Of a stretch of DNA of 64,000 nt, positions 4,996 to 42,491 are shown piece after piece; positions within the stretch are counted from its first letter, which is position 1; each line of letters starts with the position of its first letter. The DNA comes from a virus (taxonomy: Duplodnaviria > Heunggongvirae > Uroviricota > Caudoviricetes). The position numbers and the translations under genes were made by a program. The stretch lies in the IMG/VR virus record IMGVR_UViG_3300016457_000036, positions 7,253 to 71,252 of that record; one strand, given 5' to 3'. Below the pieces are notes generated by a model, which did not search any database, was not told the origin of the DNA, and saw only the letters and a list, made by a program, of their open reading frames with translations.

Positions 4996-5032
4996 TAACA
5001 GGGTTCGTCCCTGCAAATGAAAGGAGCCTATT

Positions 5033-27641: not shown

Positions 27642-27844
27642 AAAAGGGCCAAATAGTAGTATTAAAAGATACTACTTGGGGAGGTATAACACTTTTACGT
27701 TATCACTCATCTTACAATGAAACTCATTTTAATGCTTATCTTCACTTTGATATGTCAAGTGAACATTCTGTTATTGAGGACCTCTCAGAAATTATGTCTA
27801 CAGAGTTTTTAACAGAATTACTTAAAAAGGAAACACATGAGTAA
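27638..27844 (+). CDS. hypothetical protein (68 aa)
   Basis: ATGA overlap. Confidence 0.35.
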   Translation: MKKGQIVVLKDTTWGGITLLRYHSSYNETHFNAYLHFDMSSEHSVIEDLSEIMSTEFLTELLKKETHE

Positions 27845-28163
27845 TTGGGAACCTACACCTGGTGAGATGATTAATACACCTATGGGCATACGAGAGTTTT
27901 TAGCTTTAAGCTCAGAAGAAACGTATATTTGTTGGACACCTAGAAAAACAAATACAGGAGTATATCCCTCACACCTATGTTCAGAAATCAAACCTGAACC
28001 TATTATCGAACGTAGATGGATATGGCTACGAGATGTGGCAGAAGGTCACACAGTATCAACAGCAAGTTATTTTAGTGCTGCATACGCAAATATTAACTAC
28101 GCAAAACTTGACGGATGGTACAGATCTGAGCATTACATCGATGTGGACGTATCTCATGACTAA
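27837..28163 (+). CDS. hypothetical protein (108 aa)
   Basis: AAAAGGAAACACATG. Confidence 0.45.
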   Translation: MSNWEPTPGEMINTPMGIREFLALSSEETYICWTPRKTNTGVYPSHLCSEIKPEPIIERRWIWLRDVAEGHTVSTASYFSAAYANINYAKLDGWYRSEHYIDVDVSHD

Positions 28164-28356
28164 ATTAGAAGTAGTACAAGTTATGGAAGCTGCTGATGAC
28201 TTTGTTCTGTGTAACTCTGAAGATGCTCTTATCGGTCGAATGGTACGATTAGGTGTAGCCCTTAAAACAGCTGATGATAATAATGCACCTGCTATCGGGT
28301 TAGAATTAGCCTGTCTAGTTGCTTTTGCGCAAGACTATTATATGAAGGACGAATAA
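28156..28356 (+). CDS. hypothetical protein (66 aa)
   Basis: internal ATG of track ORF 28033..28356 overlapping stop of upstream gene. Confidence 0.35.
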   Translation: MTKLEVVQVMEAADDFVLCNSEDALIGRMVRLGVALKTADDNNAPAIGLELACLVAFAQDYYMKDE

Positions 28357-28886
28357 TGAATTACCCTGTAAGAAAAATACACCGCAAAGAAAGATTTGTT
28401 GTAGAGTTTACAGCCCAAGAACAAGGGACGGTTATTGCAACTACTGACTTAATGGAAGCTACACGTCCTGTAGGCTATGTCTCTCATTCATGGCGTACTT
28501 GTCTCGACACTAGTTTATGGGAAGATGTTATTCTTGCTTGTAAAACTTGTGGTAAAGAAGCTCTCTTATACGCTAATGGATACTGCTCTCAAGCTTGTCA
28601 AGATAAAGCACTTAGCAGTAAAAAAACTAATGGCAGTAACGACGGATCTAAGAACTCATTCTACGCAATTCCTGAATGGGTAGAAGACGTAGATGATTTA
28701 GCTGAGTATCTTAAGCTAGATGGCTTTGAATTTAACGTACTGAAGAGCTTATGGGCTCATATCGGTGATCGTCACTCCGGCACTAACGTCAAACGTGAAG
28801 CTAACAAGCGAGTACATTATGCAAATCGCTCAGTAGCTAAAATTATACGCGCAGAAGAAGAGGCAAGAAATGAAAGCAGAACTTAA
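28356..28886 (+). CDS. zinc-ribbon protein (176 aa)
   Basis: CKTCGKEALLYANGYCSQAC. Confidence 0.45.
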   Translation: MNYPVRKIHRKERFVVEFTAQEQGTVIATTDLMEATRPVGYVSHSWRTCLDTSLWEDVILACKTCGKEALLYANGYCSQACQDKALSSKKTNGSNDGSKNSFYAIPEWVEDVDDLAEYLKLDGFEFNVLKSLWAHIGDRHSGTNVKREANKRVHYANRSVAKIIRAEEEARNESRT

Positions 28887-29127
28887 ATTCTCAGTACCCT
28901 GTACTGCAACAGATTACTATTATGTAGACTCTAAAACACTTACTAATGCAGAAGTGAAAGCGGCTATCGCTGCATGTGACAATGATCCCTGGCAAGCTGA
29001 AGATGAATACGACATTGTAGTATCTCTCGGTAGTTCATGTGATCCTGACACAGATGTAGAAGCACTTGAATGGGAGGAAGAATATGAAGAACGAAAAAAC
29101 TCAGAACGTGCCGCTAAATCTATGTGA
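28870..29127 (+). CDS. hypothetical acidic protein (85 aa)
   Basis: ORF track. Confidence 0.4.
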   Translation: MKAELKFSVPCTATDYYYVDSKTLTNAEVKAAIAACDNDPWQAEDEYDIVVSLGSSCDPDTDVEALEWEEEYEERKNSERAAKSM

Positions 29128-29512
29128 CACTTGCCGTTTCAGTTTTGCAACTTGCCGTCCTAGAAAAGTTGTGTTTAAATCTGCGACAGAAGACGCTGTT
29201 ATTGAGTGTGACAAATTCGAGGAACCGCCTACTAAACATGGTTTTAAATACACAGGTCCCGGTCGTATACCTGACACACTTCTTCTTAACGTATCTCATC
29301 GTGAATATCATCGTAGAGTATTTGAAAAATGTGTACCTGAATACCTTACATACAAACTTCGTAAACTAAAAGACGTTATTGAACATTCTGTAAAAGATGG
29401 ACTACTAGTTCTTTCACCTAATGAAAACCTTCAATTACTACATCGCCTCAAAGCACTTAAAACTGTACAGGCTGAACTCGACTATATCTACTCAACAGGA
29501 AAAACTTCATGA
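29084..29512 (+). CDS. hypothetical protein (142 aa)
   Basis: ATG at 29084 inside track ORF. Confidence 0.4.
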   Translation: MKNEKTQNVPLNLCDTCRFSFATCRPRKVVFKSATEDAVIECDKFEEPPTKHGFKYTGPGRIPDTLLLNVSHREYHRRVFEKCVPEYLTYKLRKLKDVIEHSVKDGLLVLSPNENLQLLHRLKALKTVQAELDYIYSTGKTS

Positions 29513-30267
29513 AACCATTCTTTAAGTACGCAGGTATTCACTACCCTGTATTCGGCTCTGCTGTAGGGTGGGAAAACGGCCGCTATAAGTCAGAAATGTC
29601 ACGCTTAGTCGGTGGCTATGGTGATAACTACGGTAAGTGGTGGACATTCTCTTGGGGATGGAAAACACGTGTATGGAATAAAGCTAAGCCTCTTAAACAG
29701 TTTATCGTTGATGCAGTAGCCGATCACCCTGAGATGGAAATTGAATGGCGTTGGTTCGAGGACTCACATCCTGAACAAGGCGGTATGTGGGCGGTAGTTC
29801 ACGCTGAAACTAAACAGTATCTTGGAAATCTCTTAGATGCGTTCTACATGACACCACTTACACAGATCACACATGGTACAGGCTTTAACATCTCAGAGCA
29901 GAAATGGTACGGATGGTCACACCGTGCTAAATATGGCTTTGGTGTTGGTTCTACAGTCAAGAAAGGCGATGTTGCTTATAAAGCACGTAACCCACATGAA
30001 CTTGTAGAGGCCTGTCTCAGATTTTGGGGCGATGTAGACTACCCTAAAAAAGTAGAGAAAATTGAACATAACTACCTTGAAGATTTTAATAATACTACAG
30101 GTGTGATGATCACTTTCGATACTACTGAAGAACTCGTAGAAGGCGGTGTACAACAGACCGGTGAATTTATCCCGTATCCTGAAACATGGGGACGTGGTGA
30201 ATGGACTGCAGAAACTCTTGAAGATGCTCATGAAATGGCACTAGCTTTCTCAGATGGCGTATCGTGA
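29509..30267 (+). CDS. hypothetical Trp-rich protein (252 aa)
   Basis: ATGA overlap; no motif recognised. Confidence 0.5.
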   Translation: MKPFFKYAGIHYPVFGSAVGWENGRYKSEMSRLVGGYGDNYGKWWTFSWGWKTRVWNKAKPLKQFIVDAVADHPEMEIEWRWFEDSHPEQGGMWAVVHAETKQYLGNLLDAFYMTPLTQITHGTGFNISEQKWYGWSHRAKYGFGVGSTVKKGDVAYKARNPHELVEACLRFWGDVDYPKKVEKIEHNYLEDFNNTTGVMITFDTTEELVEGGVQQTGEFIPYPETWGRGEWTAETLEDAHEMALAFSDGVS

Positions 30268-30476
30268 AAGAACTCTATGCAGTAACCATATGGGATCTTT
30301 CTCTAAAAAATCCTGCTTCTAACGACTTCTTAAAAGGTTGGGAACGCTTGTGGTTATCTGAAGTAGGTACAGATAGACCGCTATACCTATCTAAAAAAGA
30401 CATCATTCGTTTTAAAGAGAATGGCTACACAGTACATCATATAGCATTGGAGTATCCGAATGACCGAAATTCATAA
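30264..30476 (+). CDS. hypothetical protein (70 aa)
   Basis: GTGA/ATG overlap. Confidence 0.35.
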   Translation: MKELYAVTIWDLSLKNPASNDFLKGWERLWLSEVGTDRPLYLSKKDIIRFKENGYTVHHIALEYPNDRNS

Positions 30477-30699
30477 CTACTTCTCATTTAAAAAGAAGTT
30501 TCTATATGACTTACAAGCTTCCTACGCTAACACACAAACTAACTTAGAATTTGAGGATTATGTAGACTTCAAGTATACACAATACGTAGAAGATGAGTAT
30601 GATAAATGTGTTAAAACTGTATCTGCTCGTCATGCACCTACATACAACTTAGTAAACGCCTTCAGACGTTTTATCTCAGAAAGGGGCTTTAATGCCTAA
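30460..30699 (+). CDS. hypothetical protein (79 aa)
   Basis: ORF track. Confidence 0.35.
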   Translation: MTEIHNYFSFKKKFLYDLQASYANTQTNLEFEDYVDFKYTQYVEDEYDKCVKTVSARHAPTYNLVNAFRRFISERGFNA

Positions 30700-30860
30700 T
30701 TTAAAAAACATGCTCTTCGATGTAGCTAAAGATACCGGCACAGACTACGTTAAGTCAGGGCTCGGTATTATGACGGCTATAAAAGTCTTCATCTACTTTA
30801 TGATGGCAGTAATCGCTGTCAGCTTCACAGCAGGGCTATACGCTCTATTCACCAATTAAA
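30692..30860 (+). CDS. small membrane protein (55 aa)
   Basis: AAAGGGGCTTTAATG; C-terminal hydrophobic helix IKVFIYFMMAVIAVSFTAGLYALF. Confidence 0.35.
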
Positions 30861-30870
30861 AAGGACACAC

Positions 30871-31215
30871 ATGGAATTTATGATCGCTTGGTATCCCCTA
30901 GCTCGTTTCTTCTTCTTCGGAACTATTATCGCTATCGCAGGTTATCTACTTTATAAAAAATGGTACAAGACATCGGGCACTTTGTTTATGGCACTGTTTC
31001 TTTTCGCTGTCTTTGCTCCGGTAAAGATCGACGGTACACAATCGCACTCTGCCCATAAAGCTGAAGTAAGTGCACGTACTCAAGAGTATAGAATCGTCGA
31101 AAGTGAAAAGGTAATAGTCACCACTAAAAAACCCACATTTGAAGAACGCATGGCAGCTGAAGAAGCTCGCTCTGCCTCTGCAAACAATAAGGTCGAAAAT
31201 GAAATGCTCAAATAA
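30871..31215 (+). CDS. membrane protein (114 aa, two TM helices + charged tail)
   Basis: AAAAGGACACACATG; FFFFGTIIAIAGYLLY and LFMALFLFAVFAPV. Confidence 0.45.
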   Translation: MEFMIAWYPLARFFFFGTIIAIAGYLLYKKWYKTSGTLFMALFLFAVFAPVKIDGTQSHSAHKAEVSARTQEYRIVESEKVIVTTKKPTFEERMAAEEARSASANNKVENEMLK

Positions 31216-31378
31216 AACAGGCTTTACAATTATCGAATTAATTTTCGTAATTGTTATCTTAGGTATCTTGGCTTCTGTAGCCATTCCTGGAATAAAAAAA
31301 GCTCAAAAAAGAGAAGCCGCAGCTCAACAATCTTTTGAACAACCTGCTAAAACAGATGACGATGGAAGTACCTGGTAA
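31199..31378 (+). CDS. type IV prepilin / pseudopilin-like protein (59 aa)
   Basis: MKCSNKTG|FTIIELIFVIVILGILASVAIP = class III signal peptide (G-1, F+1, E+5) and N-terminal pilin helix. Confidence 0.55.
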   Translation: MKCSNKTGFTIIELIFVIVILGILASVAIPGIKKAQKREAAAQQSFEQPAKTDDDGSTW

Positions 31379-31587
31379 TGGAACTCTATGATGCCTTATG
31401 GATAGTTATACCTCTATGGCTATTCGTCGATGAAAGATTAGCTTTCCTTGTAGGTGTTGTTCTTTTATTCGGAGTAGGTATTACTTATCTTCCCGAACAT
31501 TCTCCATCTCAAAACTTAACTCAGATCCACGCAACAGATGTAAATACGTCTGCACCTAGTAGTGATGATACTACTGATTGGCATTAA
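31378..31587 (+). CDS. small membrane protein (69 aa, 2 TM), possible NfeD-like SPFH partner
   Basis: hydrophobic WIVIPLWLFV / LVGVVLLFGVGITYL; immediately upstream of SPFH gene. Confidence 0.4.
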   Translation: MELYDALWIVIPLWLFVDERLAFLVGVVLLFGVGITYLPEHSPSQNLTQIHATDVNTSAPSSDDTTDWH

Positions 31588-31588
31588 C

Positions 31589-32461
31589 TTGAAAAAAATT
31601 CTATCTCTATTGGCTTTAGTAGCCGTAATGATGCTCAGCACAGGCTGTTCGTATGACACAGTACCACAAGGTACAAAAGGTAAGGTCTTAGACCGCTCAG
31701 GCTTCCAACCGGAAGTTTACCCACCGTCACGTGTTGATGTTGGTTTACACGGTAACTTGGTACTTGTTGAAACGATCACACATACTGTAAACGAAACTGT
31801 TACAGTACGTATGAAAGACGATATGAACCTTGTTGCACAGGTACGTTTTAAATTACGTATGGGTGAGAAACCAAAATCTCTTAATCTTGTATTCAATGAT
31901 ATTAGACCTGGTGAAGGTGGTATTATTACTCTGAAACAGATCTATGAAGTACACGGTAAGATGCTTGTTAACAAGATCGCACGTGAAGTACTTTCACAGT
32001 ACAACATTGGAGATGTAAACGATAACTTTACACATATCTCTTCTGACATTTATAACAAGACTCTTGAAGCTTTCAAGCCTACACCACTTATCGTAACTGA
32101 TGTAGCACTTGGTAAACTTGACTATCCTGATGTTATTGACCGCGCTATTGAAGCAGCAGCTAAACGTGAACTTGAAATCAAACAAGCCGAAGCTGATGTT
32201 GCTGTACGTCTTACAGAACTGAAGGGTAAAGAGAAGGTCGCAGAAGGTGAATATCGTATCAAAATGCAGGAAGCGAAACGTATTCGTGACTACAATAAAA
32301 TGATCGCTAAAGGTATTACACCACAACTTCTACAACTTCGTCAGCTTGAAGTACAACAAGCGATGGTGCAAACTATCGAAAAGGGTGATGCTACCACTAT
32401 CTTTATTCCTTACGGATCTCAAGACAGCTTAGGTATGCAAACACGCATGTACAGTAAGTAG
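31589..32461 (+). CDS. SPFH (band-7/stomatin/HflC-like) domain lipoprotein (290 aa from TTG)
   Basis: TTG start gives MKKILSLLALVAVMMLSTGC lipoprotein signal; body has SPFH-like ...VALGKLDYPDVIDRAIEAAAKRELEIKQAEADVAV. Confidence 0.55.
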   Translation: MKKILSLLALVAVMMLSTGCSYDTVPQGTKGKVLDRSGFQPEVYPPSRVDVGLHGNLVLVETITHTVNETVTVRMKDDMNLVAQVRFKLRMGEKPKSLNLVFNDIRPGEGGIITLKQIYEVHGKMLVNKIAREVLSQYNIGDVNDNFTHISSDIYNKTLEAFKPTPLIVTDVALGKLDYPDVIDRAIEAAAKRELEIKQAEADVAVRLTELKGKEKVAEGEYRIKMQEAKRIRDYNKMIAKGITPQLLQLRQLEVQQAMVQTIEKGDATTIFIPYGSQDSLGMQTRMYSK

Positions 32462-32468
32462 TGATATT

Positions 32469-32500
32469 CAGCAGCCTTTTGGCTGTTGGTCTATCTCTAT
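32469..32500 (+). terminator. putative terminator hairpin after SPFH gene
   Basis: CAGCAGCC-TTTT-GGCTGTTG stem-loop then T-rich GTCTATCTCTATT. Confidence 0.45.
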
Positions 32501-32589
32501 TAGAGAGATTTTAAAATGAAGATTATGAGAATTAAAGAGGCTATATAAATCATGTAATGATTATACCTACTACTACTTAAAGGACTCCT

Positions 32590-32820
32590 ATGCCATCTAT
32601 TCATTCACAAGCAGAACGTCATCGTATCCATGAAAAGTATGATCTTACATTCAAACTTATTGATATGTATCTTACACTAGAACCTGTTCTAGCCACAGAC
32701 ACAGCACACGAACAACTACTACTGCTAGAAGATGCTTCAGAAGCTACTAAACGTCTTGGTGGACAGCTAGTATCGCGCCAGGCTGTAGCAGTATTGCTTG
32801 CACCTTACTTGGAGTTATAA
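32590..32820 (+). CDS. hypothetical protein (76 aa)
   Basis: AAAGGACTCCTATG. Confidence 0.4.
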   Translation: MPSIHSQAERHRIHEKYDLTFKLIDMYLTLEPVLATDTAHEQLLLLEDASEATKRLGGQLVSRQAVAVLLAPYLEL

Positions 32821-33221
32821 TGACTGAAATATTCCTTCTACTAGTCCTGTTTCAACTTAAACATTTCCTAGCAGATTACCCTCTGCAATTTCCGTATATG
32901 TATGAAAATAAAGGTAAAGCTACAGGATGGGTTGCGCCATTAGCTAATCATGCTTGGATACACGCTGCAATGACTTTAATCATAGGCGTATTCTTTTTAC
33001 TTGATGTAAATCCTGAGATACTAACAAGACCTGCATTTGCTATCTTATTCTCTATTACTGCAATAGACTTTACTACTCACTTCATAGTCGATAGATGGAA
33101 GGCTACACGCAAAGGTGGACCTGATACACCTCGTTTTTGGATCAACCTCGGATTAGACCAAATGGCTCATCATTTAGTTGGTATTTTCATTATCTACATT
33201 TTAATAACTCAAGGACTTTAA
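32820..33221 (+). CDS. polytopic membrane protein (133 aa)
   Basis: 3-4 hydrophobic segments. Confidence 0.45.
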   Translation: MTEIFLLLVLFQLKHFLADYPLQFPYMYENKGKATGWVAPLANHAWIHAAMTLIIGVFFLLDVNPEILTRPAFAILFSITAIDFTTHFIVDRWKATRKGGPDTPRFWINLGLDQMAHHLVGIFIIYILITQGL

Positions 33222-33515
33222 ATGTCATGCTCCTCCCTCACAGAAAAAGAAAAAGCAAAAGCGCTCACAGAAGCAATCAATGAACTGCATAAAAAAGAGT
33301 TGTTTAAAGACAATTTAAAAACATGGTCTGAAAGAGTGGTACAAAGTCTTTATACACCTAAAAAAGGTGATGATGCTCTACTCTTCTACCACTCTCGTTT
33401 ACCTATCGAATTTCCTGCTGCAGAGTGGTTTATCCGCTATCCTGCAGATGAATTCGATGTTCGTCTTGACTACCTAACACTTACTGCTTATGCTGAGTTA
33501 AAGGAAGAGTCATGA
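33222..33515 (+). CDS. hypothetical protein (97 aa)
   Basis: ORF track. Confidence 0.4.
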   Translation: MSCSSLTEKEKAKALTEAINELHKKELFKDNLKTWSERVVQSLYTPKKGDDALLFYHSRLPIEFPAAEWFIRYPADEFDVRLDYLTLTAYAELKEES

Positions 33516-33961
33516 TTACACCTAAATTTGATCCTGAAAGTATCTCTCATGATATTCTAAAAGAAGTCATAGAGCCTATCCTCAAAGATAAGTTAGAAGC
33601 TCTTGCTATTAACGGTGTAAAAAACATTAAGTACAAAGAGGATACATGGAATAGAGACTTATCTTATGAAATAGATACAGACAACCTATCAGCTAAAACT
33701 GTTAAGCAATGTAAGCGTCTTTTTACTATTCGTATGGAAGCTAAAAATAAAGTAGTTGTAGACCTTCTAGCTAGGTGTGATGCAGTACTTTACGATATTA
33801 AATCATACCCTAAATTTAAAGAAGCCATCTTTGAAATGGATCTATGTAAAGCTGAAACAGAGATGAGTGACTTCCTTAAACGCTACATTAAAGGTACTGC
33901 TCCAAGTAAAGCTATCTATCGAGCTAGACTACAAAAATTTTATAAAATTCAATGCACATAA
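33512..33961 (+). CDS. hypothetical protein (149 aa)
   Basis: ATGA overlap. Confidence 0.45.
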   Translation: MITPKFDPESISHDILKEVIEPILKDKLEALAINGVKNIKYKEDTWNRDLSYEIDTDNLSAKTVKQCKRLFTIRMEAKNKVVVDLLARCDAVLYDIKSYPKFKEAIFEMDLCKAETEMSDFLKRYIKGTAPSKAIYRARLQKFYKIQCT

Positions 33962-33971
33962 AGGACAAATA

Positions 33972-34286
33972 ATGGCAATCATTACTACTTCAATTTCCGG
34001 ACCTAAAAAAGGTATCCCACATCGCCTCAGAGCAGGTGTAGTTATTAGAACACCTGAACGCGCAGAAACAGATGGCGAGTATTATGAACGTAATTTAGGC
34101 TTCTTCAACAATAGTGCTAACGTCCCTACTACTTGCCCTAAGTGTGAAGCTGTGCTAATACAGCGTATGAAACGTCTCAGTCCTGGTAACATCACAAGTG
34201 TTACTCTAAACTGTTCTAACAAAAAATGTAAACGTGTGTATGTATCTGCATACCCGGCTAAAAAGGTAAACGCTTATGGAAACTAA
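33972..34286 (+). CDS. zinc-ribbon protein (104 aa)
   Basis: AAAGGACAAATAATG; CPKCEA...CSNKKCKRV. Confidence 0.4.
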   Translation: MAIITTSISGPKKGIPHRLRAGVVIRTPERAETDGEYYERNLGFFNNSANVPTTCPKCEAVLIQRMKRLSPGNITSVTLNCSNKKCKRVYVSAYPAKKVNAYGN

Positions 34287-35136
34287 ACAAAAAACAGTGT
34301 GTGTATATCACGGTAACTGTCTTGATGGATTTACTGCTGCATGGGTTCTACACTCAGCCTTAAATCCTTTTACTGATTTAACACTTGTAAAAGGTGCATA
34401 CACAGAAAAACTTGATGTAGATCAATTTATTGATGCTGACGTATACTTTGTAGACTTCTCAGTTAAAGCTCCTGAAATGCAAGCAATCGCTGCAGTAGCC
34501 AATAAAGTAGTTATTCTTGATCACCACGCTTCAGCAGAACGTGAACTACAAATCGTAGCTGAAAAAACCGGTAATGTTCACATCGAATTTGATATGAAAC
34601 GCTCAGGCGCTATGATTACATGGGATTATTTTTTCCCTTCTTCAGAAGCTCCTACTCTTATTAAAATCGTACAAGATCGTGATCTATGGCTATTTAAAAA
34701 TCAGTATACTAAAGCACTTACTGCTTATATGTTTACACTTGAACAGACTATTGATGTATGGAACGATCTTCTTACTGATGTAAATTCAGGTAAAGCTATT
34801 GACATGGGTCAAGTACTTCTTGATGCACATGACAAAAATGTAGCTGCTATCATCGATGGCTGTACTCGTGAAGTTTTACTCGGAGAGCATAAAGTCAATT
34901 TAACTAATGCTCATTGGATGTATGCCTCTGATATAGGTCATAAAACTATTGGTGACAACCTATTCTCAATGTCGTATTTTATCAACTCAGATGGGGTATA
35001 TTCATACTCTCTACGCGCTGATAATAATTTCGACTGCTCTGTATTAGCTGAAACTTACAGAGGTGGTGGGCATCCTAATGCTGCAGGTTTCTCATCAGTT
35101 TTACCGGTATGGACTGAGATCAACGAAGAACTGTAA
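34276..35136 (+). CDS. DHH/DHHA1 family phosphoesterase (NrnA/RecJ-like, 286 aa)
   Basis: VCVYHGNCLDGFTAAWVL (motif I), ILDHHASAE (DHH), GGGHPNAAGF (DHHA1). Confidence 0.75.
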   Translation: METKQKTVCVYHGNCLDGFTAAWVLHSALNPFTDLTLVKGAYTEKLDVDQFIDADVYFVDFSVKAPEMQAIAAVANKVVILDHHASAERELQIVAEKTGNVHIEFDMKRSGAMITWDYFFPSSEAPTLIKIVQDRDLWLFKNQYTKALTAYMFTLEQTIDVWNDLLTDVNSGKAIDMGQVLLDAHDKNVAAIIDGCTREVLLGEHKVNLTNAHWMYASDIGHKTIGDNLFSMSYFINSDGVYSYSLRADNNFDCSVLAETYRGGGHPNAAGFSSVLPVWTEINEEL

Positions 35137-35447
35137 TGGGTAAAGCACTTAAAGTCTTTACAGCAATCTATGGCGATACAGTTAAATACGGTCCTACTCT
35201 CTATAGCATACAAGATAGAGACGGTACAGAATTTACAGATCATCTCAACATCGACATAGCAGCTAATTCTGAAGTACCTCCTAGAGGTGCTTTGGTTATG
35301 GTGAAGGGGTATAAACCTTCTCACAAAAATAAACAAACTGTAGTTTTAGTAACTGTTGCTCGTAAAGGGCTCATTAAAGCTATCATAAAAGGAACTTTCC
35401 ATGAAAAAATATTTAATCGCATTTATCGTGAGTGCCACACTCGCTAG
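35136..35447 (+). CDS. hypothetical protein (103 aa)
   Basis: ATGG overlap. Confidence 0.4.
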   Translation: MGKALKVFTAIYGDTVKYGPTLYSIQDRDGTEFTDHLNIDIAANSEVPPRGALVMVKGYKPSHKNKQTVVLVTVARKGLIKAIIKGTFHEKIFNRIYRECHTR

Positions 35448-35559
35448 TGCATGTATCACACCTATTAAACCTATCGCACCTATTGGTTGCTCGTCTTCTG
35501 ACGCTGTACTGATCACAAATTCTGATGGTACATGCTATTGGGTATTTATGGGTTGTTAG
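35401..35559 (+). CDS. small secreted Cys-containing peptide (52 aa)
   Basis: AAAGGAACTTTCCATG; signal peptide MKKYLIAFIVSATLASA|C; overlaps upstream ORF by 47 nt. Confidence 0.3.
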   Translation: MKKYLIAFIVSATLASACITPIKPIAPIGCSSSDAVLITNSDGTCYWVFMGC

Positions 35560-35865: not shown

Positions 35866-35940
35866 CGAGGTATGGCCAAGTGGTAAGGCGGCGGCTTTTG
35901 GTGCCGTTATTCGGGGGTTCGAGTCCCTCTACCTCTACCA
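35866..35940 (+). tRNA. tRNA-Gln (anticodon TTG)
   Basis: cloverleaf: D-arm GCCAAGTGGTAAGGC, anticodon stem GCGGC/GCCGT loop TTTTGGT, T-arm GGGGG-TTCGAGT-CCCTC, CCA encoded; resembles E. coli tRNA-Gln. Confidence 0.8.
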
Positions 35941-36106
35941 TATGGTCGAAAGACCACCATGACTAAACAACAGGTAACTTCAGAAAGCTTATAGTGAGCT
36001 ACGTTGAAGATTAAAAGCATCACGTACTAATGGATCACTAATCCATGAACGCAACGTCATCCTGTACTGCATACTAAGTTACAGTAGAGAATTGTTTAGT
36101 CTAAAT

Positions 36107-36190
36107 GTAAAGTAAAAGTTGTTCGGATACAGCACCGAGACTGTAAATCTCGTCTTTAGGGGAGTGGTTCGAGTCCACTACTTTACACCA
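36107..36190 (+). tRNA. tRNA-Tyr (anticodon GTA), long D/variable region
   Basis: acceptor GTAAAGT/ACTTTAC, anticodon stem CGAGA/TCTCG loop CTGTAAA, T-arm AGTGG-TTCGAGT-CCACT, CCA encoded; D-arm fold ambiguous. Confidence 0.6.
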
Positions 36191-36195
36191 TATGT

Positions 36196-36271
36196 TACGT
36201 TATAGCTCAGTTGGTAGAGCGTTTCGCTGTTAACGAAAATGTCCCTGGTTCGAGTCCAGGTTACGTAGCCA
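36196..36271 (+). tRNA. tRNA-Asn (anticodon GTT)
   Basis: TAGCTCAGTTGGTAGAGC D-arm, TTTCG-CTGTTAA-CGAAA anticodon arm, CCTGG-TTCGAGT-CCAGG T-arm, CCA encoded. Confidence 0.85.
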
Positions 36272-36443
36272 CATGATCGCAAGATCACCAAAAAAACAGG
36301 TACTCACCTGTACAAAAAGAGTAGCTAAATTTTTGACAACTTGGAAAGACAAGTCAGTAGTCCTCTCGAAGCCGAGGAGCAAATAGTTATTTAAGGGTAG
36401 AGCCTATATGCCTAGTCATACAATGATAACTAGCTACATAAGT

Positions 36444-36519
36444 GGGGAATTAGCTCAGCTGGGAGAGCGTCTGCCTTGCACGTAGAAGGTCAGCGGTTCG
36501 ATCCCGCTATTCTCCACCA
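36444..36519 (+). tRNA. tRNA-Ala (anticodon TGC)
   Basis: GGGGAAT acceptor with G3:U70, anticodon loop CTTGCAC, T-arm AGCGG-TTCGATC-CCGCT; near-identical architecture to E. coli tRNA-Ala. Confidence 0.85.
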
Positions 36520-36725
36520 AATATGGGACGAAAGTTAGCGAATACTGTCGGAGTCATGACCTTCAGGAGTGAGTAAAAATCTCACAGATCCCACCACTTA
36601 AATATGGTCCGACTAGAAATAGATTACCATGCGCGGTAAGGGAAGCCTAAAACTTTCTCGGCCACCACCTAAATATGGTCGTTACACGATCACCATCACA
36701 CACAAATTAAATAAGGAACTACCCC

Positions 36726-37487
36726 ATGTCAAAACCTGTATTACACGAATTACTTGCCGTAGAGCAAGGACTATCTGAAACAGCTAATCGTATCACTAAA
36801 GAGACGATCAAAACACTATCTACTAAGCAATCTATCTTTGCCGGTATGAACAAAGCACACACTATCTTCGCAGAAGATCAGCAACACCTGGTTCAAGCTA
36901 CAGAGTACAAAGAAGTACAATCTACTGCAGATGAGCAGATCAACTTTCTAAACACAGAGATCGCTCGTTATTGGGACGTTACTCTACAAAAAGAAGAGGC
37001 AAACCAACGTGCTAATGCAGACATCATTATTGATGGTACTACTCTCGCTACAAATGTACCTTCTATCGTTTTACTAGGTCTTGAAAAGAAACTTACTTCT
37101 CTTCTAGCAGTTTATAACGCATTACCTACACTTGATGCTGCTACAGCTTGGGAAAGTGATCCATCTGCATCTAAAGATGGTATCTTTCGTACTAAGTATC
37201 CTGAAGAGCGTCAGCACAACGTAACTGAGCTAAAGTATATCATTGCTGCACCTGCAACTGAGCGTCATCCTGCACAAGTCAAAGAGCAAAGTATTACTGA
37301 TGTTATCGGTAAATATGTGATCACTACTTTCTCAGGTGCTATCACTTCATACGACAAAGCAGCACGTCTTGAGAAGCTTACTAAACTGATCCGTGCTGTG
37401 AAAAAAGCTCGTCAACGTGCCAACAACACAGAAGTAAACACAGATCTTACTATCGGTGCTACTATGCTAAAATACATTAACGATTAA
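36726..37487 (+). CDS. hypothetical protein (253 aa) embedded in stable-RNA island
   Basis: ATAAGGAACTACCCCATG; long clean ORF. Confidence 0.5.
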   Translation: MSKPVLHELLAVEQGLSETANRITKETIKTLSTKQSIFAGMNKAHTIFAEDQQHLVQATEYKEVQSTADEQINFLNTEIARYWDVTLQKEEANQRANADIIIDGTTLATNVPSIVLLGLEKKLTSLLAVYNALPTLDAATAWESDPSASKDGIFRTKYPEERQHNVTELKYIIAAPATERHPAQVKEQSITDVIGKYVITTFSGAITSYDKAARLEKLTKLIRAVKKARQRANNTEVNTDLTIGATMLKYIND

Positions 37488-37806
37488 TTCGTTAGTGGGT
37501 AAACGAAAGTTTGCCACATTAAGTGTATTTACAATAGCTATGTAACGTAGGCATTAAATGATAGTATATGTCTCAAAGCACAGCTAGGAAACTATCCTTG
37601 TTCATTCGGCTATGCATAGTTGTATGATCACCTGTAAATACATTTACTGTGGTAAATTTATCTTTACATTTATTCACCCTACTATACTCTAACTGAGGTG
37701 GTAGGTTATTTTCATTCTTATTTTATCACCACGATAAATTAAGTTCTGAAGACCTTTAAAAAAGAGTACACCACTCGCGCAGAACTACTTCTTTTAGTTA
37801 ACGTAC

Positions 37807-37868
37807 ATGGGTTCGAGTCCCATTCCGGCCACCATTTAATACGGCCGGGTGATGTAAGCGGCTTACAT
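37807..37868 (+). ncRNA. permuted tRNA-like element P1: 3' half (T-arm + TCCGGCC-A-CCA) followed by matching 5' acceptor GGCCGGG
   Basis: ATGGG-TTCGAGT-CCCAT T-arm, acceptor 3' strand, ACCATTTAATAC spacer, then complementary 5' strand and 8-bp palindrome ATGTAAGCGGCTTACAT. Confidence 0.4.
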
Positions 37869-37940
37869 CGTTAATATAATTTATCTTAAAAAGTAGTTAC
37901 TAGCAACTAATAGGTTGAACATCATTTAACACAAAAATTT

Positions 37941-38010
37941 GAAGGTTCGAGTCCTTCCCCGCCTACCATTACTTTACAGGCGGGTAGTCGAATTGGTTAT
38001 AGACGTTTGT
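37941..38010 (+). ncRNA. permuted tRNA-like element P2: T-arm + CCCGCCT-A-CCA, spacer, 5' half AGGCGGG-TA-GTCG...
   Basis: GAAGG-TTCGAGT-CCTTC T-arm; 5' acceptor AGGCGGG perfectly complementary 13 nt downstream followed by D-arm-like GTCGAATTGGTTATAGAC. Confidence 0.4.
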
Positions 38011-38019
38011 ATAATGCAC

Positions 38020-38052
38020 GACAGAGGAAATAAAGGTTATTATTCCTCTGTC
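38020..38052 (+). other. strong hairpin (10-bp stem GACAGAGGAA / TTCCTCTGTC, 13-nt loop)
   Basis: perfect 10-bp inverted repeat in ORF-free region. Confidence 0.6.
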
Positions 38053-38297
38053 TCAAAACATAGCTCTAGGGGTATATACGTATTGTAGTACTTAGTAGTG
38101 TGGATCACGGACTACAATCCCGATCTCGTATTTTGTCTCGTCCCGCAAGGATGTACAGACAGAGCGACAAAACGCTGCGGTGTACCCTGAGAGGTGTGTT
38201 TTAAAGCCACCACAAGATTCTGTAGTAATAGTCTCTAATGCTGTAAGTATGGCACTACTTGTAATAGTGTCAGGATCACTTACTGTATTACGTCCGA

Positions 38298-38419
38298 CAT
38301 GACGTTAAACATGACATTACTTTGTGATTAAAGTAGTTACCGAGAACGTAGACTAATAATCTACTCAGTACCGGACCGGCATGACGTTAAACATGACATT
38401 ACTTTGTGATTAAAGTAGT
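38298..38419 (+). repeat. two perfect 40-bp direct repeats (CATGACGTTAAACATGACATTACTTTGTGATTAAAGTAGT) 42 bp apart
   Basis: copies at 38298-38337 and 38380-38419; each contains ACTTT-GTGATT-AAAGT inverted repeat. Confidence 0.7.
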
Positions 38420-38736
38420 CAGTACAGACTTAAAAAACATAATCATATATTCACGATTATTTTTATTGTGACTGATAGGATAGACTATCTCCTGCTGCGG
38501 ATTCGCGGTGGGGTAACATATAAGGTAATAATTATGAGTAATCTTAAAAATGCAATCGTACAACAGTTAATAACAGAAGACGCTGCAATCTATAAAAACA
38601 ATGATAAATATATCCACATCTACGGACGAGAAGATGCAGATTGGGGTATAGATATTTACGATGGAATGGATTATAATGTTCCTTCATTTTCCTGTATAAT
38701 GGAAAAAGGCACAGCAGCTGAAGCTTTCGATTACGC

Positions 38737-38811
38737 GGGTGAGTCGTCTAACGGTTAGGGCCCGCCTCTCATAAAGGCGGTATCAGAGTTCGATTCTCTG
38801 CTTACCCACCA
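38737..38811 (+). tRNA. tRNA-Met/Ile2 (anticodon CAT), elongator-type
   Basis: acceptor GGGTGAG/CTTACCC (G1-C72 paired), anticodon arm CGCCT-CTCATAA-AGGCG, T-arm CAGAG-TTCGATT-CTCTG, CCA encoded. Confidence 0.7.
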
Positions 38812-39262
38812 TTTAGCACAGCCTAGTGCATAGAGCCTACATGGTTAAAGGCTTGAGTATATGTAAGAAATACCTATCTTAACATAACTCTTAATCTATG
38901 TACTATGGTGTGCTTTGAGGCATACACAACGAGTTCTTCTTTGATGTAACTCAGCATAAAGTTCTCAGCTCCCACCGGCCCAGTTTAATCAGCAGCGATG
39001 GCCTATAACTCAGAAATGATTAGCGAGACTCAGGTTCCTCTTTTAGGCTCCTTCCTTGTCTCGCGATTAAGCATACCTTTCATTACATTATGTGTACTGA
39101 CAGGTGTGCTTTTTTGGTAATTATGTACACATGGTGGAGATTTCTAGTAGTGGCGGAATTCAATAAAGACGCTAAATAACAGTTCCTCCGTTCAGAGTGC
39201 TGTATGAGCTAACTTGAAAATTAGCAATTCATAGGTGGAAGTCCTGTGACTACTTTATATAT

Positions 39263-39610
39263 GGGCGCAACATGGCTTCGACAGGAAATTGGTCCCACCC
39301 CGAATGATACAAGGTATGATACTACCTCAACAGATCATTAACTTAAATGTAAACAACATGAATTTTAATCCTACTGCAGAGCTTGCTGCTGCGTAGTGTG
39401 GACCGGGACAGACACATAACCAACTTGTCCCACACTTTAAGTCTTTGCCTTGTTGCAGAGCCTAGCACCGTAAGTTCACGCTAGTAACCAATTCTTACAT
39501 CCTTGTTTTACAGTTTTACGCATATTGACTGTGATAAATTGCACGTATCGTGAAGTTCGGTTAAAAAGATGATTTTTTGGACTCGGGTTCGATACCCGAT
39601 GCGTCCACCA
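39263..39610 (+). ncRNA. ssrA: tmRNA (ssrA-like transfer-messenger RNA), tag reading frame ...NFNPTAELAAA-stop
   Basis: 5' GGGCGCA-ACATGG-CTTCGAC-AGG and 3' GGAC-TCGGG-TTCGATA-CCCGA-TGCGTCC-A-CCA match tmRNA consensus; internal ORF gca gag ctt gct gct gcg tag ends 39396. Confidence 0.75.
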
Positions 39611-39762
39611 TACGCTATCCCCTTGATACTATTATGTAGTATGAATGGGGTTGCGAAGCTGCAGATGCAACCACTAAAATCTTATACGCAGCATAGTACT
39701 TCTTCATTTCTATTAAAACTATGAAGAACGCTCCCGGGTATGGTCGGCTAGGGAGAGTAGTG

Positions 39763-39785
39763 TTGACCTTTGTTTATGATATAAT
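39763..39785 (+). promoter_or_regulatory. promoter candidate: TTGACC ... extended -10 TGATATAAT
   Basis: perfect TGnTATAAT at 39777-39785; -35-like TTGACC at 39763 (short spacer). Confidence 0.4.
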
Positions 39786-39824
39786 TTTCTCAGTTCCTTT
39801 ATACATGTTAAGTATATAATTGTA

Positions 39825-40021
39825 GTTACTCCGCCTTCGGGCATCACATTTGGGATATGACTTACTGCAATTTCTAACTTAGCATTTATAAGGGAATATG
39901 TACACAGTTACTCCTGCTGTTTTCAGCAATTCACTGCTAATGATTTTACTGTGCACACTCTCCCTGTTAGTCTTCAATAAACTCAAGTTTATGGTATTGG
40001 TTACTCCGCCTTCGGGCACCA
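39825..40021 (+). repeat. repeated leader element GTTACTCCGCCTTCGGGCAYCA (x2; GTTACTCC x3) each preceded by AT-rich -10-like box
   Basis: copies at 39825-39846 and 40000-40021, third GTTACTCC at 39907; contain C-UUCG-G tetraloop. Confidence 0.5.
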
Positions 40022-40098
40022 AACTTCTAATTTGATCTTACCTCTACTACTCACTTGAGTTTATTGAACACTATCACTAAAACTAAAAGGAAATCCCC

Positions 40099-42294: not shown

Positions 42295-42414
42295 TATTGA
42301 TGCGTTGAGTTCTTCCATGTCTCTTGTAAGTCATCGCTCCTTTAAGACTATGGGGATAGTCCTTAAATAATTTCCGTCGGGTTATTAACTTTTTCCCGGC
42401 GGTTTCCTAAATGT

Positions 42415-42491
42415 TAGAGATTAGCTCAGTTGGTAGAGCAATCCTCCGTAAAACAGAAGATGTGTCGAAGGTTCGAGTCCTTCATCTCGCC
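42415..42491 (+). tRNA. degenerate tRNA-like gene (possible pseudo-tRNA; anticodon arm not foldable)
   Basis: perfect D-arm TAGCTCAGTTGGTAGAGC and T-arm GAAGG-TTCGAGT-CCTTC, but acceptor has 2 mismatches and no 5-bp anticodon stem; no CCA. Confidence 0.3.

What the first reader, a model, noticed from the sequence alone, without database searches (positions are those of the whole stretch)
30692..32461. Membrane cassette containing a type-IV-prepilin-like protein and an SPFH lipoprotein
Five consecutive small membrane-associated genes lie here: a 55-aa TM protein, a 114-aa 2-TM protein, a 59-aa prepilin-like protein, a 69-aa 2-TM protein and a 290-aa SPFH/band-7 lipoprotein. The prepilin-like protein has a textbook class III signal peptide and pilin N-terminal helix (MKCSNKTG|FTIIELIFVIVILGILASVAIP, with Glu at +5). 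The SPFH protein has a lipoprotein signal (MKKILSLLALVAVMMLSTGC, from a TTG start). A phage-encoded pseudopilin would be a substrate of the host prepilin peptidase. It could poison or remodel type IV pili or type II secretion, for example for superinfection exclusion via receptor-pilus blockade, or it could be part of a non-canonical lysis or membrane-remodelling system. The SPFH protein with a small upstream membrane partner resembles bacterial stomatin/NfeD operons.
Basis: partly seen in the sequence, partly recalled or inferred. Interest (0 to 1): 0.75.

Follow-up and report, generated by a model that had tools for sequence, protein, structure and literature searches.

The report
Phage mini-pilin paired with SPFH scaffold
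A virulent phage carries a tightly packed operon that pairs a prohibitin-like membrane-scaffold lipoprotein with a tiny decoy copy of its host's pilus-subunit membrane helix; the same pairing recurs in unrelated phages and probably switches off host pili or related filaments.

Summary
Five co-oriented, overlapping or abutting genes lie at 30692-32461: a 55-aa TM protein, a 114-aa 2-TM protein, a 59-aa prepilin-like protein, a 69-aa TM protein and a 290-aa SPFH lipoprotein. Pfam N_methyl and Band_7 both score above their cut-offs. All five are under purifying selection against a related metagenomic phage.

New findings:
- The conserved partner of the SPFH lipoprotein is the 114-aa 2-TM protein. 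This pair occurs in Pseudomonas, Klebsiella and many uncultured phages. The pilin-like and 69-aa genes sit in a variable slot between the two.
- The pilin-like protein is a "mini-pilin": leader, alpha1N helix and a roughly 29-aa tail, with no globular domain. Its helix matches Campylobacterota pilins at 20 of 22 residues.
- Mini-pilins lie directly next to SPFH genes in at least five gene orders and three SPFH subtypes, including Aeromonas phage 44RR2.8t. This held for 7 of 10 viral mini-pilin loci, 0 of about 68 loci with long pilins and 0 of 79 bacterial loci.
- No endolysin, holin or NfeD domain was found. The cassette lies in the early/middle region.

The proposed function, interference with host type IV filaments helped by an SPFH scaffold, is inferred and not shown.

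The parts
30692..30859 (+). 55-aa protein with one C-terminal TM segment; its start overlaps the stop of the upstream 79-aa gene (ATGCCTAA)
   Evidence: ORF. One TM segment at residues 29-45. Homologue in L040 with 62% identity and dN/dS 0.08. No family hit. Seen only in close relatives.
30871..31215 (+). 114-aa 2-TM protein, the conserved partner of the SPFH lipoprotein. The positively charged KKWYK loop between the TM segments predicts that the N- and C-termini face the periplasm. The roughly 60-aa tail ends in a conserved helix, TFEERMAAEEARS..AN.
   Evidence: A 100-125-aa 2-TM protein sits just upstream of the SPFH gene in PS119XW, Miami, Nankokuvirus and most IMG/VR loci. 82% identity and dN/dS 0.13 against L040. 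Conserved motifs in alignment A7. AF2 model shows helices 3-28, 32-48, 60-79 and 90-113, pLDDT 67. No NfeD hit.
31199..31378 (+). 59-aa mini-pilin. It has an 8-residue basic leader ending in Gly, then F+1, T+2, E+5, G14 and P22 of an alpha1N helix, then a roughly 29-aa hydrophilic tail ending DGSTW. It has no globular pilin domain.
   Evidence: Pfam N_methyl 30.3 bits against a cut-off of 21.2. PHROG pilin families. Orthologues in the same slot in L040, L005, L019, L127, L128 and L131, plus P0002. dN/dS 0.27. 20 of 22 identity with Campylobacterota pilin N-termini.
31378..31587 (+). 69-aa protein with two short hydrophobic segments and an acidic Ser/Thr-rich tail ending TDWH; an occupant of the variable slot
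   Evidence: ORF. TM segments. Homologue of 84 aa in L040 with 46% identity and dN/dS 0.31. Small TM proteins occupy the same slot in L014 and L018; homology to them was not tested. No family hit.
31589..32461 (+). 290-aa prohibitin/HflK/C-like SPFH lipoprotein with a TTG start and lipobox LSTG|C20. It has an SPFH domain, a 62-residue helix and a second helix. The SPFH domain is predicted to face the periplasm.
   Evidence: Band_7 48 bits. phrog_200 at 1.3e-38. Invariant lipobox. AF2 pLDDT 83.4. Foldseek top hits are prohibitin 8rrh (1.6e-14), HflK/C 7vhq, 9cz2 and 7wi3, stomatin, erlin and QmcA-YbbJ. The PDB profile search gives prohibitin at 3.7e-7. dN/dS 0.06.
32457..32501 (+). Hairpin directly after the SPFH stop codon (9-bp core at 32468-32489), followed by a second small hairpin and a T-run. 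It is the probable end of the transcription unit.
   Evidence: Sequence. RNA fold -22.7 kcal/mol, z = -3.2. The simple terminator scan did not call it. Phage Miami has an annotated terminator at the equivalent place after its SPFH gene.

Best explanation
This is an early/middle-region phage operon encoding an inner-membrane and periplasm module. It is not a lysis cassette.

The core is a prohibitin/HflK/C-like SPFH lipoprotein. Its SPFH domain and long coiled coil face the periplasm, where such proteins assemble into ring or cage scaffolds on a membrane. It is paired with a conserved 2-TM partner whose helical tail also faces the periplasm.

A 'mini-pilin' is inserted between the two. It has a class III signal peptide, a near-perfect copy of the host pilins' alpha1N transmembrane helix and a short flexible tail.

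Most likely mechanism (inferred):
1. The host prepilin peptidase processes the mini-pilin.
2. The mini-pilin accumulates in the inner membrane as a decoy subunit.
3. There it engages the partners of the host pilin helix: the assembly platform, other pilins, or pilin-sensing kinases. This shuts down or poisons type IV pili, pseudopili or competence filaments.
4. The outcome would be exclusion of superinfecting pilus-dependent phages, or protection of progeny from adsorbing to cell debris.
5. The SPFH scaffold and its small TM partners organise, concentrate or stabilise the decoy in a membrane microdomain.

Shown: gene identities, topology signals, conservation, host mimicry, and recurrent adjacency of mini-pilin and SPFH genes.
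Inferred: processing, the target, the phenotype, and any physical interaction between SPFH and the mini-pilin.
For: Family and fold:
- N_methyl and Band_7 score above their Pfam cut-offs.
- The SPFH model matches full-length cage-forming prohibitin, HflK/C, stomatin and erlin. Prohibitin, HflK/C and erlin face the non-cytoplasmic side (from memory).

Host mimicry:
- The mini-pilin helix matches Sulfuricurvum and Sulfurimonadaceae pilins at 20 of 22 residues. It diverges right after P22, where host pilins continue into alpha1C and a globular domain.
- Phage relatives use Ala at -1, as host pilins do.

Recurrent linkage, in at least five gene orders:
- 2TM-pilin-(TM)-SPFH lipoprotein: the window, L040, L005, L019, L127, L128 and L131.
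- SPFH lipoprotein then pilin, with ATGA overlap: L042 and L045.
- 2TM, SPFH lipoprotein, then pilin: L076.
- Pilin then TM-anchored SPFH: L047, L080 and L108.
- TM-anchored SPFH then pilin: Aeromonas phages 44RR2.8t and relatives (Table 3 of PMC1524935).

Numbers:
- 7 of 10 viral mini-pilin loci have an adjacent SPFH gene, against 0 of about 68 loci with long pilins (Fisher p = 4.5e-8).
- Counting only lineages that were not in the query gives 3 of 6 against 0 of 68 (p = 3e-4).
- 0 of 79 bacterial loci have an SPFH neighbour or a mini-pilin.
- In 290 kb of SPFH loci plus the whole 64-kb window, the pilin-like ORFs found all lie next to an SPFH gene.

Precedent:
- A 17-aa PilA transmembrane peptide alone signals through PleC, impairs pili and cuts PhiCbK susceptibility by 77% (PMC7196804).
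- PilA regulates PilS through intramembrane contact (Kilmury & Burrows 2016, cited in PMC6058289).

Context: a Tad6 anti-Thoeris gene lies two genes upstream, and the region sits between the RNA polymerase and the replication genes.
Against: - No experiment exists for any member.
- Most SPFH-bearing phages lack a mini-pilin. Examples are many A1-type loci, the three isolates checked from the 740 GenBank records with the 44RR-type SPFH (T5-like JLBYU40, Lw1 and Privateer), and DLP3.
- Some mini-pilins have no SPFH neighbour: KVP40.0030, avDM12, L070, L085, L104 and L044. Each part can therefore work alone.
- The sampling is pattern-limited and partly seeded with known pairs, so the frequencies are rough.
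- The conserved C-terminal (D/E/K)G(S/T)TW of the slot mini-pilins overlaps the ribosome-binding site and start codon of the next gene. It may reflect a nucleotide constraint rather than a docking motif.
- The host is inferred only from pilin similarity. No prepilin peptidase or host machinery was examined.
- In Privateer and Lw1 the SPFH gene lies near lysis or lysis-inhibition genes.
Confidence: 0.4

Rival explanations
1. This is an envelope-homeostasis or lysis-timing module. The SPFH scaffold and its small TM partners stabilise or compartmentalise the inner membrane during infection. They might prevent premature lysis, counter membrane-targeting abortive-infection systems, or modulate a host protease as HflK/C does with FtsH. 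In this reading the pilin-like protein is only a convenient N-in/C-out single-pass client or anchor and has no role in pilus biology.
For: - SPFH genes are very common in virulent phages whose hosts lack active type IVa pili, and they stand without any pilin there. This covers 740 records, of which T5-like JLBYU40, Lw1 and Privateer were checked.
- The variable slot also holds non-pilin small TM, soluble or secreted proteins.
- The SPFH gene lies beside rI/rI.-1 in Lw1 and two genes before the endolysin in Privateer.
- The fold matches HflK/C, which cages FtsH.
Against: - This does not explain why the client copies the host pilin helix at 20 of 22 residues with an intact class III leader, F+1, E+5 and P22.
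- It does not explain why only truncated pilins associate with SPFH genes.
- No lysis gene is adjacent in the window.
Confidence: 0.25
2. The clustering is coincidental. The five genes are independent small membrane 'morons' that accumulate in the same permissive early-gene region. The mini-pilin and the SPFH protein act separately.
For: - Both parts occur alone in many phages.
- The junction between the 2TM and SPFH genes is an insertion hot spot with varied contents.
- Part of the recurrence within the A1 clade can be shared ancestry.
Against: - Adjacency recurs with three distinct SPFH subtypes and in both gene orders.
- The junctions are often overlapping start and stop codons.
- The enrichment is specific to mini-pilins, and bacterial loci show none.
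Confidence: 0.15
3. The mini-pilin is actually polymerised. The host machinery incorporates it into pili or pseudopili as a capping, terminating or filament-altering subunit, or as a phage-specified thin filament like the truncated Geobacter PilA. In this reading it does not act as a membrane-resident decoy.
For: - The assembly-relevant residues F1, E5 and P22 are invariant in the nine aligned mini-pilins, and G14 is present in most.
- Naturally short pilins exist. The bacterial contig L043 encodes a 50-aa example. Geobacter PilA is about 61 aa (from memory).
Against: - A 29-aa unstructured tail offers no globular domain for subunit packing.
- There is no evidence of any filament.
- This reading does not explain the SPFH linkage.
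Confidence: 0.1
4. This is a non-canonical lysis cassette of holin, antiholin and spanin type.
For: The cassette consists of small TM proteins plus a lipoprotein. In Proteus phage Privateer the SPFH gene is close to an endolysin.
Against: - Pfam and PHROGs find no endolysin, holin or spanin family in or around the cassette.
- The lipoprotein is a 290-aa SPFH protein, not a roughly 60-aa o-spanin.
- The cassette sits between the RNA polymerase and the replication genes.
Confidence: 0.03

Closest known systems
Caulobacter PilA 'CIP' transmembrane peptide acting on PleC, and P. aeruginosa PilA acting on PilS (pilin alpha1N as an intramembrane signal)
   Same: In both cases a pilin reduced to its N-terminal transmembrane helix is enough to act on membrane partners. 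The CIP peptide impaired pili and lowered PhiCbK susceptibility by 77% (PMC7196804). The PilS reference is cited in PMC6058289.
   Different: Those are host pilins or synthetic peptides. Here the truncated pilin is encoded by a phage, mimics the host helix and is genetically coupled to an SPFH gene. No sensor kinase target is known for the presumed Campylobacterota host.
Cage-forming SPFH complexes: HflK/C-FtsH, prohibitin PHB1/2, and QmcA-YbbJ (SPFH-NfeD)
   Same: The protein has a Band_7 domain, a long CC1 helix and a CC2 helix. Its full length matches 8rrh, 7vhq, 9cz2, 7wi3 and 8z5g structurally. It faces the non-cytoplasmic side, as HflK/C and prohibitin do. It is encoded with a small membrane partner.
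   Different: It is anchored by a lipid (lipobox), not a TM helix. It is probably homo-oligomeric. Its partner is a 2-TM protein with a helical tail and has no NfeD/OB domain. No protease client is evident.
Aeromonas phage 44RR2.8t ORF098c (SPFH) and ORF097c (N_methyl), and the same pair in phages 31.2, 60AhydR15PP and AhFM11
   Same: An SPFH gene sits directly next to a mini-pilin of about 70 aa in a virulent phage. Both Pfam hits were listed without comment in 2006 (PMC1524935).
   Different: That SPFH protein is TM-anchored and belongs to another subfamily. The gene order is reversed. The pilin tail carries two Cys residues. A DUF1190 lipoprotein follows.
Phage superinfection-exclusion and receptor-masking membrane proteins: T5 Llp and Cor lipoproteins, T4 Imm/Sp, and the pilus blockers Tip, Aqs1 and PfsE (all from memory)
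   Same: These are small early-expressed envelope proteins, often lipoproteins, that disable the entry route. PfsE is a tiny inner-membrane protein that acts on the pilus platform.
   Different: No sequence relationship was found or tested. None of them is a pilin mimic or an SPFH protein. The only hint was a weak hit (E = 0.0068) of the 114-aa protein to the 'superinfection exclusion' family phrog_15667.
Naturally truncated pilins: Geobacter PilA-N of about 61 aa (from memory) and the 50-aa bacterial mini-pilin P0005
   Same: They have a class III leader, an alpha1N helix and a very short tail.
   Different: They are chromosomal and have no SPFH neighbour. 0 of 79 bacterial loci had one.

Membership tests
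Type IV pilin-like proteins (class III signal peptide; Pfam PF07963 N_methyl) | HMM match above the curated threshold | tested here: met
   N_methyl 30.3 bits against a cut-off of 21.2, E = 2.6e-7. phrog_3433 'pilin' at 2e-9.
Type IV pilin-like proteins (class III signal peptide; Pfam PF07963 N_methyl) | Short basic leader ending in Gly or Ala, Phe at +1, Glu at +5, about 20 hydrophobic residues, and the helix-kink residue P22 (with G14) | tested here: met
   MKCSNKTG|FTIIELIFVIVILGILASVAIP. F+1, T+2, E+5 and P22 are invariant in 9 mini-pilins. Relatives and host pilins use Ala at -1.
Type IV pilin-like proteins (class III signal peptide; Pfam PF07963 N_methyl) | Amphipathic alpha1C helix plus a globular beta-sheet head domain | tested here: not met
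   The mature protein is 51 aa. Only about 29 hydrophilic, low-complexity residues follow P22. It is therefore an alpha1N-only 'mini-pilin', not a complete pilin.
Type IV pilin-like proteins (class III signal peptide; Pfam PF07963 N_methyl) | Cleavage and N-methylation by a prepilin peptidase, and assembly by a type IV filament machine | not testable with these tools
   This needs expression in a host carrying PilD. None of the 32 window ORFs scanned with Pfam, including 20 of the 35 ORFs of 150 aa or more, hit a prepilin peptidase family.
SPFH / Band 7 (PF01145) cage-forming scaffolds | SPFH domain HMM match above threshold | tested here: met
   Band_7 48 bits against a cut-off of 23.6. The PDB profile search finds prohibitin at 3.7e-7.
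SPFH / Band 7 (PF01145) cage-forming scaffolds | SPFH domain followed by long coiled-coil helices, with full-length fold similarity to solved cages | tested here: met
   AF2 pLDDT 83.4, helices 181-242 and 245-264. Foldseek hits to 8rrh, 7vhq, 9cz2, stomatin and erlin at E = 1e-14 to 1e-11 over 264-321 alignment columns.
SPFH / Band 7 (PF01145) cage-forming scaffolds | Assembly into a membrane-attached oligomeric ring or cage | not testable with these tools
   Only a monomer could be modelled.
Bacterial lipoproteins (SPase II substrates) | Signal peptide with a lipobox and an invariant Cys | tested here: met
   MKKILSLLALVAVMMLSTG|C. G19 and C20 are invariant in 11 homologues and C20 in 37. 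No dedicated predictor such as LipoP or SignalP was available.
SPFH-NfeD operons (stomatin/NfeD, QmcA-YbbJ) | A partner protein carrying an NfeD domain (C-terminal OB-fold) | tested here: not met
   No NfeD Pfam hit at E<=1 for the 114-aa or 69-aa proteins. The AF2 model of the 114-aa partner is all-helical, pLDDT 67, so confidence is low. The arrangement of SPFH plus a small membrane partner is similar, but family membership is not shown.
Holin / endolysin / spanin lysis cassette | An adjacent muralytic enzyme, a holin family match, or a small o-spanin lipoprotein nested with an i-spanin | tested here: not met
   Pfam and PHROGs find no such families in 27837-35559. The cassette lies between the RNA polymerase (11553-13319) and DNA polymerase A (47588-49045).
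Known anti-phage defence system proteins (PADLOC) | HMM match to a defence-system component | tested here: not met
   The only hit was a chance-level JetA match at E = 0.0094.

The most novel reading that the evidence does not exclude
Mini-pilin plus SPFH is a dedicated and so far unrecognised phage system. A periplasm-facing SPFH ring or cage uses a host-mimicking alpha1N decoy to capture or corral the host's membrane pilin pool or its assembly platform. This would give virulent phages of pilus-bearing hosts (Aeromonas, Campylobacterota and other uncultured hosts) a general way to switch off type IV filaments. It would also be the first defined client for a viral SPFH protein.
Probability: 0.25. 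Interest if true: 0.8.

Novelty: new variant of a known kind. Interest (0 to 1): 0.62.

Why it matters
SPFH genes are among the commonest unexplained accessory genes of large virulent phages. The 44RR-type alone is in 740 GenBank phage records, and phrog_200 covers T5-like, T4-like and jumbo phages. No function has been assigned to them.

Short pilin-like genes in phages are equally unexplained. A recurrent genetic coupling between the two gives both a concrete and testable hypothesis: a decoy pilin helix working with a membrane scaffold to disable host pili, pseudopili or competence filaments.

Cultured models are available for the test, namely Aeromonas phages 44RR2.8t, 31.2 and 60AhydR15PP.

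If the hypothesis holds, three things would follow:
- A new mechanism of superinfection exclusion.
- A natural counterpart of the synthetic pilin-peptide inhibitors proposed as anti-biofilm agents.
- A handle on what viral SPFH cages enclose.

Tried and rejected
- Near-identity DNA search of 29500-33500 against GenBank phages gave no match. The phage has no cultured close relative. Its primase is only 37% identical to those of Alteromonas podophages.
- PADLOC gave nothing meaningful.
- NfeD partner hypothesis: there is no HMM hit and the model is helical.
- Lysis-cassette hypothesis: no lysis families are nearby.
- Stenotrophomonas phage DLP3 is pilus-dependent, and its SPFH lipoprotein is followed by a 50-aa ORF. 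That ORF is not pilin-like.
- The '7 of 7' adjacency for 44RR-type SPFH in IMG/VR was not taken at face value. A GenBank tblastn search found 740 records with this SPFH type. The T5-like, Lw1 and Privateer examples have no mini-pilin. The IMG/VR figure therefore reflects the narrow search patterns.
- I first read the conserved C-terminal DGSTW/KGTTWN of the slot mini-pilins as a docking motif. These codons contain the ribosome-binding site and ATG of the downstream gene, so the question is left open.
It was redone with database homologues.
- The putative promoter motif after the terminator is unique in the window. No phage promoter consensus could be derived.
- Literature searches for phage SPFH together with pilin, for phage-encoded pseudopilins, and for SPFH with superinfection exclusion found no functional study.


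Full report
**1. Observation**

- They are packed as one translational unit. The 55-aa gene's ATG overlaps the stop of the upstream gene. The 114-aa and 59-aa genes overlap by 17 nt. The 59-aa and 69-aa genes share TAATG. One base separates the 69-aa stop from the TTG start of the SPFH gene.
- A strong hairpin follows the SPFH stop (-22.7 kcal/mol, z = -3.2). Klebsiella phage Miami has an annotated terminator at the equivalent place.
- Pfam scores the 59-aa protein as N_methyl (30.3 bits, cut-off 21.2) and the 290-aa protein as Band_7 (48 bits, cut-off 23.6).
- PHROGs places them in pilin families (phrog_13280, phrog_3433) and in phrog_200 'lipoprotein'.
- Hydropathy gives 1, 2, 1, 2 and 1 hydrophobic segments.
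- The complete cassette is conserved in a diverged metagenomic relative, L040. Amino-acid identities are 62, 82, 64, 46 and 92%. dN/dS values are 0.08, 0.13, 0.27, 0.31 and 0.06, rough because dS is saturated. All five are therefore real genes.
- The identical cassette is on nine metagenome contigs.
- The TTG start is conserved in L040 and aligns with the ATG-MKK start of homologues. The lipobox Gly-Cys is invariant.

**2. Genomic setting**

- The window is phage DNA. It has a T7-like RNA polymerase fragment hit (11553-13319), DNA polymerase A, a primase and helicases. It also has a tRNA cluster and a tmRNA.
- It has no close cultured relative. The primase is 37% identical to those of Alteromonas podophages.
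- The cassette lies between the polymerase and the replication genes.
- A Tad6 (Thoeris inhibitor) homologue lies two genes upstream. A DUF3307 membrane protein and a DHH phosphoesterase lie downstream.
- Pfam and PHROGs find no endolysin, holin or spanin family in 27.8-35.6 kb.

**3. The SPFH core**

- Homologues of the lipoprotein (31-38% identity) occur in Pseudomonas Pawinskivirus and Nankokuvirus, Klebsiella Miamivirus, and Aeromonas and Vibrio phages: 89 GenBank records. They also occur on many viral and metagenomic contigs.
- In nearly all of these, a 100-125-aa protein with two TM helices and a charged tail sits just upstream, often with an ATGA overlap. The window's 114-aa protein is this partner.
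- The partner's basic inter-helix loop (KKWYK) predicts that its tail is periplasmic. This is the same compartment as a lipoprotein's body.
- An AF2 model of the SPFH protein (pLDDT 83.4) shows an SPFH domain, a 62-residue helix and a second helix.
- Foldseek matches it over its full length to the cage-forming prohibitin, HflK/C, stomatin, erlin and QmcA-YbbJ (E = 1e-14 to 1e-10). A sequence profile finds prohibitin at 3.7e-7.
- The partner has no NfeD domain and is modelled as helices (pLDDT 67). The operon resembles SPFH-NfeD pairs in logic but is not a member of that family.

**4. The variable slot**

The junction between the 2-TM partner and the SPFH gene varies between phages.
- It is empty in L004, L006, L126 and the cultured phages.
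- It holds small TM proteins in the window (69 aa), L014 and L018.
- It holds soluble proteins in L007, L009 and L016, and a secreted protein in L017.
- It holds a pilin-like gene in the window, L040, L005, L019, L127, L128 and L131.
- Among the loci examined whose SPFH is at least 74% identical to the window's, six carry the pilin-like gene and three do not.

**5. The mini-pilin**

- The mature protein would be 51 aa. It comprises F1, T2, E5, G14 and P22 of a canonical alpha1N helix, about 29 hydrophilic residues, and no alpha1C helix or globular domain. One defining pilin feature is therefore tested and not met.
- The most similar N-termini in bacterial genomes are from Campylobacterota: Sulfurovaceae, Sulfurimonadaceae, Sulfuricurvum, Campylobacter and Nitratifractor.
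- Identity over the mature 22 residues is 20 of 22. The sequences diverge immediately after P22.
- Those genomes carry arrays of full-length pilins that use either Gly or Ala at -1, as the phage orthologues do.
- This points to a Campylobacterota host and to mimicry, or capture, of only the membrane helix.

**6. Recurrent pairing with SPFH (new)**

- A pattern scan of IMG/VR for pilin N-termini returned 80 loci. Ten encode mini-pilins (mature length 65 aa or less), and seven of these abut an SPFH gene. None of about 68 loci with longer pilins does (Fisher p = 4.5e-8).
- Counting only lineages that were not represented in the query gives 3 of 6 against 0 of 68 (p = 3e-4).
- The pairs involve three SPFH subtypes and both gene orders:
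  - SPFH lipoprotein then pilin (L042, L045).
  - 2TM, SPFH lipoprotein, then pilin (L076).
  - Pilin then TM-anchored SPFH (L047, L080, L108).
  - TM-anchored SPFH then pilin in T4-like Aeromonas phages 44RR2.8t, 31.2, 60AhydR15PP and AhFM11.
- The two Pfam hits in 44RR2.8t were tabulated in 2006 without comment (PMC1524935).
- In both anchor types the SPFH body is predicted to be periplasmic, like the mini-pilin tail.
- Of 79 bacterial loci with the most similar pilin N-termini, none has an SPFH neighbour or a mini-pilin.

**7. Limits of the pairing**

- It is facultative. Most SPFH-bearing phages lack a mini-pilin. The 44RR-type SPFH is in 740 GenBank records, including T5-like and Pseudotevenvirus phages. 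The three checked (JLBYU40, Lw1 and Privateer) have none. DLP3 has none either.
- Mini-pilins also stand alone in KVP40, avDM12, L070, L085, L104 and L044.
- The asymmetry is that SPFH is often present when a mini-pilin is, but not the reverse. This suggests that SPFH is the general platform and the mini-pilin a host-specific add-on.
- The sampling is pattern-limited, so the frequencies are approximate.

**8. Mechanism**

Shown: the identities, topology signals, conservation, host mimicry and linkage.

Inferred:
- The host prepilin peptidase processes the mini-pilin.
- The mini-pilin stays in the inner membrane as a decoy for the partners of the host alpha1N helix.
- Type IV filaments are shut down.
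- The SPFH assembly organises or stabilises the decoy.

Precedent makes the decoy step plausible. A 17-aa PilA transmembrane peptide signals through PleC, impairs pili and lowers PhiCbK susceptibility by 77% (PMC7196804). PilA also controls PilS through intramembrane contact (reference in PMC6058289).

Rivals:
- A pilus-independent role in envelope homeostasis or lysis timing. This is supported by SPFH genes next to rI in Lw1 and near the endolysin in Privateer.
- Coincidental clustering of membrane morons.
- True polymerisation of the mini-pilin into filaments.
- A lysis cassette, which is disfavoured.

**9. Caveat on the C-terminal motif**

The conserved (D/E/K)G(S/T)TW end of the slot mini-pilins coincides with the ribosome-binding site and start codon of the next gene. 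It cannot be read as a protein docking motif without experiment.

**10. Novelty and verdict**

- Both parts belong to known families and to existing PHROGs.
- I found no paper on the function of phage SPFH proteins or phage mini-pilins, and none noting their linkage.
- I classify this as a new variant of known kinds. It is a recurrent, phage-specific two-part module whose function is still to be shown.
- Interest is moderate to high, because it gives a testable hypothesis for two very common unexplained phage gene families and because cultured models are available.

Noticed in passing
window 29509-30267 (+): A 252-aa protein whose C-terminal half matches Pfam Tad6 (type I Thoeris inhibitor) at E = 4e-25. 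It is an anti-defence gene two genes upstream of the cassette and is present in all copies of the cassette on metagenome contigs.
   Followed up: no
window 39263-39610 (+), with tRNAs at 35866-42491: A phage-encoded tmRNA (ARAGORN; Rfam RF00023 at 56.2 bits against a cut-off of 47) with tag peptide VNNMNFNPTAELAAA. It sits in a cluster of six tRNA genes. The tag resembles epsilonproteobacterial tags (from memory), which fits the host inferred from the pilin.
   Followed up: partly
window 35401-35559 (+): A 52-aa ORF with a lipobox-like LASA|C and four Cys residues. It overlaps the end of the 103-aa ORF at 35136-35447. No family hit. It could be a small lipoprotein.
   Followed up: no
window 32820-33221 and 34276-35136 (+): A DUF3307 multi-pass membrane protein (phrog_2470, 'moron' category) and a DHH/DHHA1 phosphoesterase (phrog_4771, 4e-81) lie just downstream of the cassette.
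   Followed up: no
GenBank phages; L247 (JLBYU40), L248 (Lw1), L249 (Privateer): The TM-anchored SPFH of the 44RR type is present in 740 phage records, including T5-like Tequintavirus at about 65% identity. In Lw1 it directly follows rI/rI.-1. In Privateer it lies two genes before the endolysin. None of the three checked has a mini-pilin.
   Followed up: partly
L013 9385-9993 (Aeromonas phage 44RR2.8t ORF096c): The gene after the SPFH and mini-pilin pair encodes a 202-aa DUF1190 lipoprotein (E = 1.9e-21). The T4-like version is therefore also a cluster of three envelope genes.
   Followed up: no
L044 (GCA_029935755.1 contig, 496 kb) 5001-5183: A 60-aa mini-pilin sits on a 496-kb contig with phage-like genes (T4 RNA ligase, TROVE, NUMOD3). 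The contig may be a megaphage. No SPFH gene is called next to it, but about 1.5 kb downstream is unannotated.
   Followed up: no
L127, L128 and L131 junctions; window 31360-31380: The last codons of the slot mini-pilins (…GGA ACA ACA TGG…) contain the Shine-Dalgarno sequence and the ATG of the next gene. Part of their C-terminal conservation may therefore be a nucleotide-level constraint.
   Followed up: partly
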